Of a stretch of DNA of 64,000 nucleotides, positions 7,036 through 10,818 are shown one piece after another. The position numbers and the translations under genes were made by a program. The DNA is from Eledone cirrhosa. Taxonomy: Eukaryota. Numbering within the stretch: position 1 is the first letter of the stretch; each line of letters starts with the position of its first letter. The notes beneath the pieces are model-generated. The model had not been told where the DNA came from. It made no database searches and saw only the letters and a program-made list of their open reading frames with translations. The stretch is from assembly GCA_964016885.1 (NCBI GenBank), contig CAXHJY010000307.1, forward strand, positions 1-64,000, read 5' to 3'.

Positions 7036-9180
7036 CTAACCCTCATTGGTTAAAAAATTTAGAATATTTTCAATATCATCTATGCATCCACTTTTGCATT
7101 TCACTTGAGGAAATATTTTCAAATGTTGTGGCATGTCCATGTTTTCATAGTTATTTATAATAAATAGTTGTCCAAATTCTTGTTGTCGTTCTGCCATGGC
7201 TTGTTTGGCATATTTTGTATGTTTTAAATACTCTTCTGACATATTATTGGACTTTTCTAAAAGGATACCAATATTGCAACTGTTTAACAATATTCTGTGA
7301 AGATTTTCATTTTTAAGTTTTCCCAATTCGTTACCAAATGTAGTTCTCAAACCAAAATATTTTTCCAGATTATTTCCAATACTATTAGCCAGTTCTTCAC
7401 TATTTGGGGATGTTACAATATAGATATCATAAAGAAAATTTATTATGTTGTCATTATTTGAATGTTCTGGCATTAATTCATTACTGGATTCTGACTTATA
7501 GCAATGATACAGATCATAACACTTTCTGAAGTACATTTTACTAAATTTAATTTGTTTGGAAAGGAAATGCTTAGCTAAATTCATATAAATTTCTTTCTTG
7601 AGCTTTATGTGAATTTCATGAGGCTTATCTGTTAACTTCAGATACATATTAGCTTTAACATATTCCTTGTTTTTACAGAACTTTCTTATCTTCCGTGAAA
7701 ATTCACTCTTTTCACATTTCTGGAGAAGTTTATCATAAAGTTCTCCATCAGGCAGTTGTTCTACTGACTGAATTATTTCCAAAAGATGACTATTATCTTC
7801 CTGACAGCCATTTTCATATATATTAGTCATCATTTTCTTTATTTGCCAAATGTCTTTCAGCCTCTCTTGGAAAGGAAGAAATTCTATAGCAGCATTAACA
7901 GCCTTAAGAAACATATCTGCTCCGTCAACTTTTAATTCTTCTTTTATCTCGTCATTGTTTTCTTCATCTGCTTGTAAATAATATAATTTACCCAACACAA
8001 TGTAAAATTTAACAAAATCTACTTCATTATCTGGTTTATATTTTTCCGAGTACTTCATAGCATTTTTATATTCTTTCAGAGATATATATAATAATAACAA
8101 ATCATAAACAACAGCTGAATTTGCGGGACCAATTTTAAGAGATTGTTCATAATGATATTCAGCTTTGTCAATAAATGTATCTCTTTTAAACACCAGGAAG
8201 TCTTCAGGACATTTAAGTAAGCGTCCAATCAAATTTTCTTCATTTGAGAAATTTGGCTTTTTTTTGAAATAAGAATTTGAATTTGATTTTTTTATATACA
8301 ATAAGCCAAGATGATGATGGGAATATGACGTTTCATTAATTTCAATTGCTTTTTGAAACAATTTTTGTGATATTTCAAAGTTATGATTAATTCTATAAAA
8401 TTCAGCAGTTTTTTCCAAAACAAAACGATCATTAGATGAAATATGAAGAGCTTGCTGAAAGTAGGGTTTGGGTTGAGAGAATTTTTCATGAAATAGCCAT
8501 GTCATTTTAAACAAACCCAACAGTGTTAATGTTCGTGCCATTAGAGTTTTGTTAACATTGTGGGGGTAAGCCTGTCGTATTTTCTCTAAGCACTGGAATG
8601 CCTCTTTAGTATTTTTAATTTTTTCGTCTTTATCAAGTGATTTTTTATCCATGCGATAGTGTAACAAAGCTATTGAAAAAAGGTTTTTATATTTGTTTGG
8701 ACAAACATCAGAAATCTCTTTCAAAATTTTAAGAGCAATATTATAACTCTTAAATGATGATGACCTACTTAAACAGTAACAAACATTACTTTTACCTTCA
8801 GCTTCTAACTTTGCAAAATCCTTTCTTTTCTGAAGTTTCTCAAGATGATCCAAAACCTCAGTTAGTTTATTTATATTTTCATTGTACAAATGAATGAATG
8901 CTAGATTAGTTAATGCCACTAAATTGTCTGGATTTTTCTTTTGAACTTCAGTGGCTAATTCTTCAGCTGCAGTTTGTTTCTTTGTTTCCCACATAAGAAA
9001 TACTTTGAGATTTATCAAATAAGTCTCATCTGCTGAATCCAATATGTCAGAATTTGATGAATTTTCAATTTTTTGGTAAAGGGCCAACCAAGAATCTTTA
9101 TTGAAATCAAATGTATAACTCATTATATTTGGAAAAATTATAATTCTTTCCCGGTACAATTGTAGTGCACTTTCAATATC
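7036..9180 (-). CDS. TPR protein (TTC22/IFIT-like) with C-terminal TIR-like domain, main coding exon, copy 1
   Basis: 714 open codons plus stop; TPR-like segments NPDNLVALTNLAFIH, YFQQALHISSNDRFVLEKTAEFYR, LFQKAIEINETSYSHHHLGLLY, YEQSLKIGPANSAVVYDL; splice acceptor ctttctatttttcactcag| at 9181. Confidence 0.88.
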   Translation of the reverse strand, partial: DIESALQLYRERIIIFPNIMSYTFDFNKDSWLALYQKIENSSNSDILDSADETYLINLKVFLMWETKKQTAAEELATEVQKKNPDNLVALTNLAFIHLYNENINKLTEVLDHLEKLQKRKDFAKLEAEGKSNVCYCLSRSSSFKSYNIALKILKEISDVCPNKYKNLFSIALLHYRMDKKSLDKDEKIKNTKEAFQCLEKIRQAYPHNVNKTLMARTLTLLGLFKMTWLFHEKFSQPKPYFQQALHISSNDRFVLEKTAEFYRINHNFEISQKLFQKAIEINETSYSHHHLGLLYIKKSNSNSYFKKKPNFSNEENLIGRLLKCPEDFLVFKRDTFIDKAEYHYEQSLKIGPANSAVVYDLLLLYISLKEYKNAMKYSEKYKPDNEVDFVKFYIVLGKLYYLQADEENNDEIKEELKVDGADMFLKAVNAAIEFLPFQERLKDIWQIKKMMTNIYENGCQEDNSHLLEIIQSVEQLPDGELYDKLLQKCEKSEFSRKIRKFCKNKEYVKANMYLKLTDKPHEIHIKLKKEIYMNLAKHFLSKQIKFSKMYFRKCYDLYHCYKSESSNELMPEHSNNDNIINFLYDIYIVTSPNSEELANSIGNNLEKYFGLRTTFGNELGKLKNENLHRILLNSCNIGILLEKSNNMSEEYLKHTKYAKQAMAERQQEFGQLFIINNYENMDMPQHLKIFPQVKCKSGCIDDIENILNFLTNEG

Positions 9181-9312
9181 CTGAGTGAAAAATAGAAAGT
9201 GTATTAGATATATCATTATTTTTATCAATCTCATAAAATATATTTATCAGATATGATTTTGTTTATTAATTGAAACAAGGTTAAACCCTTTTTGTATCTG
9301 ATAGAGCTGATG

Positions 9313-9666
9313 TACTCTGGGGACCAAATAATAGGGGGGGGGGGGTGAATAAGCAGAGGAGCTGGAATAAATGGGGTTGTTGAAAAAACAAAGGGGGAGC
9401 TGGAAATCAGTAATTTTTCTAGGTTGTCTCCATTGATTTTTTTTTAAAAACTAGAATTAGTCGTTTAGTTTACATATTGAGACCACCCCAACTCATCCTA
9501 TTTATTTCATGACATACGAGATTTCTAGTAATGTAGTTTTTTGTCATGTATAATTTAGCTGGAATTAGATTAACAGAATTTAATAAGCATGGGGGTGGGG
9601 TGGAAAAATTTGAAAAATTAATAAGTGGGTGTGTACGGGGGGTGGCATTATTCGAGACCCGAGAGT
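9313..9666. mobile_element. MITE in the predicted intron (also +19067, +36913)
   Basis: Imperfect TIRs: actctggggaccaaataata versus the reverse complement of cattattcgagacccgagagt; G-rich internal subrepeats. Confidence 0.55.
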
Positions 9667-9947
9667 TGTTGATGCTCTTTTTAGACTTCTACAATTTCAT
9701 GTCAAAGTGGGAAGAAATGGAGTGCTAGACAGTGCAAGTTTTGGAATAGAAGGATTGGTTAGAATGTTAAGTACTATCTAACATGTATGTTGGTGTGTAT
9801 GTGATTATTTCTAATAATGTATATGTGTGTGATGACTACTATATTACTCTATATATGTGTGTGTGTGTTTTTAGATCCTTGACAAGGTCTTGGTTGGCAA
9901 ATTTGAACTCATTCCATGATCTTCGCCACTCTTCCTTCAGATCAAAG

Positions 9948-10067
9948 TTAATCTTTAACAGATATTTTTTTGTCCAAATAAGGATAATGGAAATTTTTTA
10001 GGCAAGCCAACATGTTCGCAGCATTACCACGAGTGATGGCAAGGCTAAGGCGCTGAAACAACAAACT
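9948..10067 (-). mobile_element. Short 3' remnant of an RLE-type (CRE-like) non-LTR retrotransposon (also +19067, +36913)
   Basis: Minus strand reads LLFQRLSLAITRGNAANMLACL, matching the FQRxSxAIQRGNAA terminal motif. Confidence 0.55.
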
Positions 10068-10076
10068 TTAATTCAG

Positions 10077-10746
10077 ACAGTATTTATAGGATTTTGCTAA
10101 ATATTCTTACCCCAGCACATTAGCCACAAAATAGACTGATAGACTGATACCGAAAATAAAATACGGTAAATTTATAGAAATATATCTTCACCGATTTTCG
10201 TGGAAAATAATTATTTTTTAATCGTGTGCTATCAATTAAACTTACCTCCTAATATGGCGCAAAGGAGTTTTTGCCCAGTGAAAAGGGCCGAGGGGATAAT
10301 CCTCAAACGTTTCACCCCGCCGTCCCGGAGTTTTCTTTACCATTTTTTTCCCCTTCCTTTTTCTGAGTGCTACCTCCTAACATGCTTGCAAAAGAAGGAA
10401 AATGGAGGGACACACACGGCATTGTTCCCACACCCTCCTGGTGTTTTCTTTATACCCTAATCCTAACCCTAACTCAAACCCCTATTCTAACCTAATCCCA
10501 ATTCTAACTCAGGGGCTTTACAGCATGTTTGGAGGTAATATTAGTTGGTAGCACACGGAAAAAAAGGGGGGGGGGAGTTGAACGAGACTTCCCGGGGAAA
10601 AGTCCTTTGTACCATATTAGGAATTAAGTTTAATTGATAGCACACGATGAAACAAAACAAAACAAAAAAACACTCACACAGAAAATAAATTATTTCCCGC
10701 TGAAATCAGTGAAGTCATTTTTCTATAATACAACTTAAAATACTGT
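10077..10746. mobile_element. Palindromic MITE/foldback with a degenerate (CCCTAA)n core (also +19067, +36913)
   Basis: Inverted arms, e.g. 10222 tcgtgtgctatcaattaaactta..cctaatatgg versus ~10612-10648 ccatattaggaattaagtttaattgatagcacacga; ~10173-10216 pairs with ~10682-10727. Confidence 0.75.
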
Positions 10747-10764
10747 ATGTATTCGGATACTTAC

Positions 10765-10818
10765 GGGAAATACTAATTCTTGTAATTTTCTGGCGATGTT
10801 CTCTGTTTCTTTCTCCAT
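10765..10818 (-). CDS. Predicted first coding exon of the TPR gene, copy 1 (MEKETENIARKLQELVFP)
   Basis: aaacATGg start context, 18 codons, then GTAAGT donor (10764-10759); phase 0 joins in frame to the acceptor at 9180. Confidence 0.65.

What the first reader, a model, noticed from the sequence alone, without database searches (positions are those of the whole stretch)
7036..10818. IFIT/TTC22-like TPR protein: candidate invertebrate RNA-sensing immune gene in a tandem cluster
Seen: the only intact host gene in each unit. From recalled family motifs (not a search), FVLEKTAEFYRINHNFEISQKLFQKAIEINETSYSHHHLGLLY parallels the IFIT segment VLRYAAKFYR...ALE.....S.LHHQ.GLCY, and EVQKKNPDNLVALTNLAFIH parallels TTC22 EV..EHPGNLNAWANLAHVY. 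Vertebrate IFITs are TPR-only proteins that bind viral RNA 5' ends and occur in tandem clusters. Inference: an IFIT-like sensor fused to a signalling domain and under dosage expansion in a probable mollusc.
Basis: partly seen in the sequence, partly recalled or inferred. Interest (0 to 1): 0.8.

Follow-up and report, generated by a model that had tools for sequence, protein, structure and literature searches.

The report
Octopus IFIT-shaped sensor fused to TIR
This spliced octopus gene encodes a protein whose predicted shape matches the vertebrate antiviral IFIT proteins plus a Toll-type TIR signalling domain; relatives occur in molluscs, echinoderms, acorn worms and amphioxus, so these likely RNA sensors may be older than interferon, though RNA binding is untested.

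Summary
The gene is real: two exons (10818-10765, 9180-7036, minus strand), 732 aa, spliced in a transcript-like contig. Residues ~26-513 model as the whole IFIT1/IFIT5 fold (Z 27.8, 413 aligned; best non-IFIT 20.1). The last ~130 residues are a TIR domain that Pfam misses and that lacks the catalytic glutamate. Relatives occur in molluscs, echinoderms, hemichordates and amphioxus. Five of seven IFIT1 basic RNA-contact positions stay basic across the family, against 2 of 22 other basic positions. This protein keeps four, with glutamate at the R255 and K259 positions, which counts against IFIT1-like binding here. It is not a member of the IFIT family as defined (TPR-only); TTC22 could not be tested. 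The cluster is overstated: one true duplication is shown (13-bp direct repeat in a split transposase), but read depth fits about 2 copies, not the 5 assembled. Best reading: a cytosolic sensor that likely binds RNA ends and signals by TIR contacts; function untested. The scan noted this family before on other DNA (e1-9963608).

The parts
10765..11106 (-). Exon 1: 5' untranslated part (at least to 11106) and 18 codons from the ATG at 10818
   Evidence: Contig of run X4 covers 10764-11106 and joins to exon 2; GT donor and in-frame upstream stop
9181..10764 (-). Single phase-0 GT-AG intron, 1,584 bases
   Evidence: Joint 9179-10764, skips 1584, in X4 only; donor and acceptor read
7008..9180 (-). 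Exon 2: 714 codons plus stop (7036-9180) and start of the 3' untranslated part
7696..9159 (-). IFIT-fold TPR module (exon-2 residues 8-495; full protein 26-513)
   Evidence: AlphaFold2 model pLDDT 91; IFIT1 Z 27.8, rmsd 3.9, 413 aligned; IFIT5 Z 27.2; Foldseek ranks 1-12 all IFIT1/5; family profile to IFIT1 E 2e-32
8392..9072 (-). Residues at IFIT1 RNA-contact positions: K55 (R38), Y153 (W147), R157 (K151), R194 (R187), E274 (R255), E278 (K259), R281 (R262), I282 (R263); full-protein numbers, IFIT1 in brackets
   Evidence: Profile alignment mapped to the query; IFIT1 residues from passages of PMC13197388 and PMC3950709
7435..7695 (-). Extra helices and a flexible linker between the IFIT module and the TIR domain
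   Evidence: Model secondary structure; pLDDT under 50 at exon-2 residues 563-571
7039..7434 (-). Divergent TIR domain; His at the catalytic-Glu position; three BB-loop residues fewer than copy B and two Octopus relatives (site near 7326)
   Evidence: hhalign 95.9%, E 5.9e-9, reversed control 0.1%; top 21 of 48,161 chains are TIR domains, Z 13.5-10.7; alignments; no Pfam TIR hit
5109..17849 (.). 12.7-kb duplicated segment carrying the gene with its intron; 99.7% identical to the copy-B region at contig 78062-90826
5097..5109 (+). Left 13-bp direct repeat (AAGTTCTTTGACA), inside a split transposase fossil
   Evidence: Same word at both ends of all four A units and absent at copy B
17847..17859 (+). 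Right 13-bp direct repeat; the flank beyond it encodes the upstream half of the same transposase
   Evidence: the Tc1/mariner label is recalled from the motif, Pfam gave no hit
26103..29885 (-). Second assembled A copy (identical protein)
43949..47731 (-). Third assembled A copy (identical protein)
61804..64000 (-). Fourth assembled A copy, exon 2 (its exon 1 lies just past the window, contig 65533-65586)
18609..21289 (.). Degenerate (TA)n array between units; like arrays at 4-3533, 37676-40446 and 55525-58301, nearly letter-identical
   Evidence: 0-3 mismatches over 2.5-2.8 kb between arrays

Best explanation
The gene is spliced and encodes a 732-residue protein predicted to fold as a complete IFIT-type TPR clamp followed by a TIR domain; it likely acts as a cytosolic immune sensor whose clamp would grip the phosphate-rich 5' end of RNA and whose TIR domain would then pass on a signal by TIR-TIR contacts rather than by cleaving NAD+. 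Shown: gene structure, transcript, homology to IFIT1/5 by sequence profile, family range. Predicted: both folds. Inferred: RNA ligand, cytosolic site, immune role, TIR-TIR output. The window's copy (A) is a recent duplicate of copy B, inserted as a 12.7-kb DNA segment into a transposon fossil, and looks somewhat eroded (Glu at the K259 position, shortened BB loop), so it may be a weaker or altered sensor than its family.
For: Fold: IFIT1/IFIT5 fill Foldseek ranks 1-12 and VIA ranks 1-11, Z 27.8-24.5 against 20.1 for the best non-IFIT chain, covering IFIT1 residues 9-469. Sequence: the 83-row family profile matches IFIT1 from residue 7 to 473 in two stretches, E 2e-32, above every natural non-IFIT protein (best 2e-17). 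Channel: among 73 non-octopus rows, K/R is kept at the R38, K151, R187, K259 and R262 positions in 41/70, 66/73, 71/73, 50/73 and 60/73; 5 of 7 RNA contacts against 2 of 22 other IFIT1 basic positions pass a 55% cut (Fisher p 0.003; 0.018 at a 60% cut; Mann-Whitney p 0.026). This protein has K, R, R and R at R38, K151, R187, R262; a review names R38, K151 and R187 as most important for IFIT1 (PMC13197388, passage). TIR; echinoderm relatives carry a canonical TIR most like those of Toll-like receptors. Lineage-specific expansions typical of immune genes: many diverged paralogues in single mollusc species. Transcript.
Against: No binding or induction data for any member. This protein has Glu at the R255 and K259 positions; K259E abolishes cap0-RNA binding of human IFIT1 (PMC3950709, passage), and R255 is not basic anywhere in the family (3/73), though the next residue is. 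The module's overall charge is not basic (69 K+R, 73 D+E over residues 1-495), and I could not compute surface electrostatics. Rows of the alignment are related, so the p values are not counts of independent events. The TIR is too diverged for Pfam and A copies lack three BB-loop residues. No GAAA-N(1-2)-GAAA element in 10701-11700 (weak, 0.14 expected). A table of poly(I:C)-primed oyster genes gave one 'tetratricopeptide' row, named TTC24-like, and no IFIT or TTC22 row (PMC7064767 supplements), but unnamed members would not show in such a search.
Confidence: 0.5

Rival explanations
1. It is a protein-binding TPR scaffold or adaptor with a TIR domain (closer in role to TTC22 or to other TIR adaptors); the basic groove binds an acidic or phosphorylated peptide or another ligand, not RNA.
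For: Two charge reversals at RNA contacts in this protein; net charge of the module near neutral; automatic names 'TTC22-like' on two echinoderm relatives; TPR grooves commonly bind peptides (established knowledge); LGN and APC/C TPRs follow at Z 18-20.
Against: The conserved basic columns coincide with IFIT1's RNA contacts rather than with its other basic residues; the match covers the IFIT-specific N-terminal subdomain that generic TPR hits do not reach (ranges).
Confidence: 0.25
2. The family senses RNA, but this copy is a decoy or IFIT-like effector: it binds RNA weakly or differently and its TIR no longer signals, so it sequesters RNA or damps its paralogues.
For: A copies carry a 3-residue BB-loop loss, a 1-residue loss and 5 of 5 coding substitutions against copy B are amino-acid changing; long end branch 0.6; TIR-less 474-510 aa relatives arose inside the octopus clade, so TIR loss is tolerated.
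Against: The frame is intact and the A form is the one seen in the transcript contig; the TIR still models confidently (pLDDT 85) and is kept in the C17 paralogue and in two other Octopus species. Five of five changes is not significant by itself.
Confidence: 0.2
3. The TIR is an NAD+-cleaving enzyme switched on by RNA binding, as in SARM1 or bacterial TIR effectors.
For: SARM1 and SPARTA TIRs are among the fold matches, tied with adaptor TIRs; echinoderm relatives keep a Glu at the catalytic position.
Against: The window protein has His at that position and the mollusc rows shown are variable there.
Confidence: 0.05

Closest known systems
Vertebrate IFIT1 / IFIT5 (PDB 5w5i, 5w5h, 6c6k, 5udi, 4hot, 3zgq)
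   Same: Whole-length fold (Z 27.8 and 27.2), collinear profile match E 2e-32, basic residues at R38, K151, R187, R262, two-exon gene (46 of 60 IFIT genes; PMC3688568 section 6), local duplication.
   Different: Adds ~90 residues of helices and a TIR domain; Glu at R255 and K259 positions; about 17% identity; no CHFTW-like N-terminal motif in this protein; host lacks a described interferon; IFITs were reported only from jawed vertebrates (PMC3688568, abstract and passages).
Echinoderm TPR-TIR proteins (e.g. Lytechinus LOC129274564, Diadema 'TTC22-like')
   Same: Profile-profile match over 555 columns, probability 100, E 1.8e-46; same order IFIT-like module then TIR.
   Different: Canonical Toll-like TIR with Glu and Pfam hits, shorter, keep a CHLTW motif; uncharacterised; form a separate long-branched clade.
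'TIR-TPR' proteins counted in the Pacific oyster immune inventory (PMC4346834)
   Same: TPR and TIR domains in one mollusc protein.
   Different: Seen only as a label in a figure legend; no link to IFIT in that text (0 occurrences); whether they are this family was not tested.
TTC22
   Different: No TTC22 sequence or structure was available, so nothing was compared; that TTC22 has no TIR domain is recalled.
Oyster TIR-STING (PDB 6wt7) and other sensor-TIR fusions
   Same: Ligand-sensing module fused to a TIR output in a mollusc; TIR Z 13.2.
   Different: Different sensor fold; no catalytic Glu here.

Membership tests
IFIT | IFIT-type TPR fold over the full length, including the N-terminal subdomain | tested here: met
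   Predicted model: Z 27.8, 413 aligned, model 8-495 on IFIT1 9-469; profile match residues 7-473
IFIT | TPR-only protein with no further domain | tested here: not met
   C-terminal TIR domain
IFIT | Basic channel residues that bind the RNA 5' end (R38, K151, R187, R255, K259, R262, R263 of IFIT1) | tested here: inconclusive
   4 of 7 basic in this protein, 2 acidic, 1 Ile; 5 of 7 mostly basic in the family; sequence mapping only, no electrostatics
IFIT | Binds 5'-ppp or cap0 RNA | not testable with these tools
   Needs a binding assay
IFIT | Two-exon gene | tested here: met
   IFIT norm from PMC3688568 section 6. Intron position was not compared
IFIT | Induced by interferon or virus through ISRE elements | tested here: inconclusive
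   No simple ISRE-like word in 10701-11700; no challenge RNA data found
IFIT | Falls within the vertebrate IFIT clade in a tree | not testable with these tools
   No vertebrate IFIT or TTC22 sequence was held as a usable protein; the tree has invertebrate rows only
TTC22 | Orthology to vertebrate TTC22 | not testable with these tools
   Only automatic names on relatives
TIR domain | Five-strand, five-helix flavodoxin-like TIR fold | tested here: met
   Model of the domain alone, pLDDT 85; top 21 chains are TIR, Z 13.5-10.7; hhalign 95.9%
TIR NADases (SARM1 type) | Catalytic glutamate in helix C | tested here: not met
   His aligns with the Glu of the canonical echinoderm TIR
TIR adaptors (TLR/MyD88 type) | Intact BB loop and TIR-TIR assembly | tested here: inconclusive
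   A copies lack three BB-loop residues present in copy B, P0001 and P0002; assembly not tested

The most novel reading that the evidence does not exclude
IFIT-fold/TIR fusions are an ancient bilaterian class of cytosolic RNA 5'-end receptors, hidden because their TIR domains are too diverged for Pfam. Vertebrate IFITs descend from such a receptor by losing the TIR domain and becoming pure effectors, and octopuses repeated that step independently, producing clusters of TIR-less, IFIT-sized paralogues.
Probability: 0.35. Interest if true: 0.85.

Novelty: new variant of a known kind. Interest (0 to 1): 0.6.

Why it matters
IFITs are reported as a jawed-vertebrate invention that arose with interferon (PMC3688568). 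A full-length IFIT fold with the RNA-contact arginines, fused to a TIR domain and present in molluscs, echinoderms, hemichordates and amphioxus, would move the origin of this RNA-binding clamp back to early bilaterians and suggest that it began as a signalling receptor. It gives a direct test of where IFITs came from and a candidate sensor for the strong double-stranded-RNA response of molluscs. This locus offers an intact, transcribed member with a near-identical sister copy for paired tests. The local tandem array itself matters little.

Tried and rejected
A second exon near 9877-10054 was considered from the three-frame reading and dropped: the transcript contig skips it. Five-fold dosage: depth gave 1.6-2.0x. 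A and B as alleles, or the contig as a duplicate haplotype: A has its own insertion flanks with a direct repeat, and a unique marker further along the contig matched in full only there. Pfam on the C-terminal domain of the three own-genome proteins: no TIR hit at E up to 1; TIR shown for 3 of 59 relatives scanned, with only the best five families listed for each. Profile search of the 5.8-billion collection returned 12 Octopus proteins and 43 generic TPR proteins, no vertebrate IFIT or TTC22; the search with the sea-urchin protein returned 14 proteins, 10 named, all echinoderm. No RNA holder listed by the run search; X4 is taken as RNA from its spliced contig only. Contig depths in X4 were not used to rank genes. 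My first control set of IFIT1 basic positions was miscounted and was redone (that script stopped on an error after printing the statistics, the rest was rerun). Earlier findings by sequence: nothing. Literature: nine searches listed no paper describing invertebrate IFIT-fold/TIR proteins; I saw listings only, plus passages of PMC3688568 (and its section 6), PMC4346834, PMC9334734, PMC13197388, PMC3950709, PMC5869526, PMC6723221 and a supplement search of PMC7064767. Subscription papers are not covered; a 2017 survey of bivalve TIR-domain proteins (Gerdol and colleagues, recalled, not seen) may list this family. No complex prediction was run.
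Full report
Gene. The minus-strand frame 7036-9243 is open for 735 codons. The gene has two exons: 18 codons from the ATG at 10818 to a GT donor at 10764, and 714 codons plus stop from an AG acceptor at 9180; 732 aa in all. Run X4 holds one 2,515-base contig that covers 7008-9179 and 10764-11106 with no other letters and skips the 1,584-base intron; X1 and X3 show no such joint. X4's library is not on record, so its being RNA is inferred from that joint; tissue and level are unknown. 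The closest proteins are 45-53% identical and come from three Octopus species (9 hits), several with automatic 'IFIT-like' names.

IFIT module. The single sequence finds 9 PDB sequences at E up to 1; 5 are IFIT1/IFIT5 (best 3.3e-4) and 4 are designed TPRs. A full HMMER scan gave 110 representatives at E up to 1e-3. Of 127 stored proteins, 103 covered at least 150 of the first 300 profile positions and were under 1,300 aa; I aligned 81 of them (22 near-duplicates, fragments or very long rows left out) with two own-genome proteins (A2). That profile matches IFIT1 collinearly from residue 7 to 473 in two stretches (E 2e-32); only designed consensus TPRs score alongside, and the best natural non-IFIT protein is at 2e-17. 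The AlphaFold2 model of exon 2 has pLDDT 91, pTM 0.83. Foldseek ranks 1-12 and VIA ranks 1-11 are IFIT1/IFIT5: Z 27.8, rmsd 3.9, 413 aligned for IFIT1, Z 27.2 for IFIT5, then IFIT2 21.3 and LGN 20.1 over 280 residues that miss the N-terminal subdomain.

RNA channel. IFIT1 contacts were taken from passages of PMC13197388 and PMC3950709 and mapped through the alignment. In the 73 non-octopus rows K/R is found at R38 41/70, K151 66/73, R187 71/73, R255 3/73, K259 50/73, R262 60/73, R263 6/72. Five of these 7 pass a 55% cut against 2 of 22 other IFIT1 basic positions (Fisher p 0.003; 0.007-0.018 at the other three cuts; Mann-Whitney p 0.026). The rows are related, so these are descriptive. The window protein has K55, R157, R194 and R281 at R38, K151, R187 and R262, Tyr at W147, but Glu at R255 and K259 and Ile at R263. 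K259E abolishes binding in human IFIT1. So the family keeps a basic groove where IFIT1 holds RNA, while this member keeps it only in part. The module's net charge is near zero; electrostatics could not be computed.

TIR domain. Pfam finds no TIR in the last 140 residues of the three own-genome proteins. A profile of 54 C-terminal segments, with the echinoderm, hemichordate and amphioxus rows I recognised left out, matches the canonical TIR of 11 echinoderm relatives at 95.9%, E 5.9e-9; reversed control 0.1%. Folded alone from a 21-row alignment that includes one amphioxus row (pLDDT 85), its top 21 matches among 48,161 chains are TIR domains (TRIF 13.5, IL-18R 13.4, oyster TIR-STING 13.2, SARM1 13.0, MyD88 12.9; Foldseek agrees). 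The ESM Atlas puts two mollusc TPR clusters and one echinoderm TPR-TIR cluster first (0.97-0.98). His stands at the catalytic-Glu position. The A copies lack three BB-loop residues that copy B and two Octopus relatives have.

Family range. Of 30 relatives looked up, 24 clusters carry names: 19 molluscs (octopus, gastropods, bivalves), 2 echinoderms, 2 hemichordates, 1 amphioxus; more echinoderms came. No vertebrate row appeared. In a 31-row tree of the N-terminal 300 residues the octopus proteins form one clade (100/98); TIR-less 474-510 aa forms from three species nest inside it, with the TIR-bearing C17 paralogue outside (100/99; midpoint root, echinoderms on a long branch). This points to TIR loss within octopuses. 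Vertebrate IFITs and TTC22 could not be added, so descent of IFITs from this family is inference. PMC3688568 found IFITs only in jawed vertebrates and rejected BLAST candidates from acorn worm and lancelet on a neighbour-joining tree (abstract, passages); whether those were the same proteins I did not check. An oyster inventory lists a 'TIR-TPR' class in a figure legend only (PMC4346834, passages). Nine searches listed no paper on invertebrate IFIT-fold/TIR proteins; subscription journals are outside the library.

Copies. Two searches of the genome found six places: five on the 144-kb contig C334 and a 39% paralogue on C17 (floors). Four A units differ by at most 1 substitution and 2 small indels over 14.2 kb; copy B is 99.7% identical over 12.7 kb and differs in the coding part by 5 amino-acid changes and 2 in-frame indels. 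Each A segment is bounded by the same 13-bp word, which splits one transposase frame; B has other flanks. So A arose by DNA-level duplicative insertion of the B region, intron included; B is the likely parent, as it keeps the residues shared with other octopuses. The four-fold repeat of A is doubtful. Single contigs over the gene have depth 22.9 (X1) and 19.9 (X3) against 14.1 and 9.9 over the C17 paralogue (9.9 in X2), i.e. 1.6-2.0x; five copies would give about 5x. X3's contigs carry B letters at 7 listed sites (7797, 7904, 8280, 9635, 10766, 11010, 11252, where 45 rows were not shown), which is easier with A and B in equal dose. The 2.7-kb microsatellite arrays between units differ by 0-3 letters, so the repeat is either extremely young or an assembler loop. 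Limits: one control locus, contig depth rather than reads, unknown library type, and the sample need not be the assembled animal.

Mechanism and verdict. Most likely a cytosolic sensor: the IFIT clamp would bind an RNA 5' end and the non-enzymatic TIR would relay the signal (0.5). Rivals: protein-binding adaptor (0.25), decoy or effector with weakened TIR (0.2), NADase (0.05). It works like an IFIT joined to a Toll-type output, but it fails the TPR-only test and is not filed as an IFIT. Class: new variant of a known kind. Interest 0.6: the structural case for pre-vertebrate IFIT-fold/TIR proteins is strong and testable, but function is untested, databases already attach IFIT-like names to some relatives, the scan saw the family before, and the tandem expansion is mostly unsupported.

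Noticed in passing
L015:5350-6714 (G000:C17:12740350-12741714), minus strand: Intronless 455-codon frame with an HD domain (Pfam E 2.8e-11) that looks like SAMHD1 (label recalled), 13 kb from the C17 paralogue of this gene; two candidate antiviral genes side by side.
   Followed up: partly
L006:1450-3636 (G000:C17:12754944-12757130), minus strand: Intact 39% paralogue with the same IFIT-fold/TIR layout; covered by short contigs in run X4; keeps basic residues at only three of the five conserved positions.
   Followed up: partly
window 5097-17859: A 12.7-kb gene-bearing segment inserted into a transposase fossil with a 13-bp direct repeat and 1-3 bases of microhomology; its ends lie inside other repeats, so it is not a transposon itself.
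   Followed up: yes
P0003-P0008 (Octopus sinensis, bimaculoides, vulgaris): TIR-less paralogues all stop at the same residue and have Thr at the K151 position; none was found in this genome.
   Followed up: partly
P0013, P0181: A snail protein with two IFIT-fold/TIR units in tandem and a crinoid protein with two TIR domains and a weak Death-domain hit show further shuffling in the family.
   Followed up: no
L011:2904-3269 and contig C334 95031-101617: Exons of a PH-domain gene with Tyr/Pro/Gln-rich repeats next to copy B; a possible synteny marker for placing the contig.
   Followed up: partly
window 5474-6510, 12075-14547, 18237-18647, 21605-22408: Broken retrotransposon pieces in each unit: RNase H and reverse-transcriptase hits; Penelope-like and RTE-like labels are recalled.
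   Followed up: partly
window 21302-22410: A 1.1-kb retrotransposon piece present only between units 1 and 2, the one structural difference among the A units.
   Followed up: no
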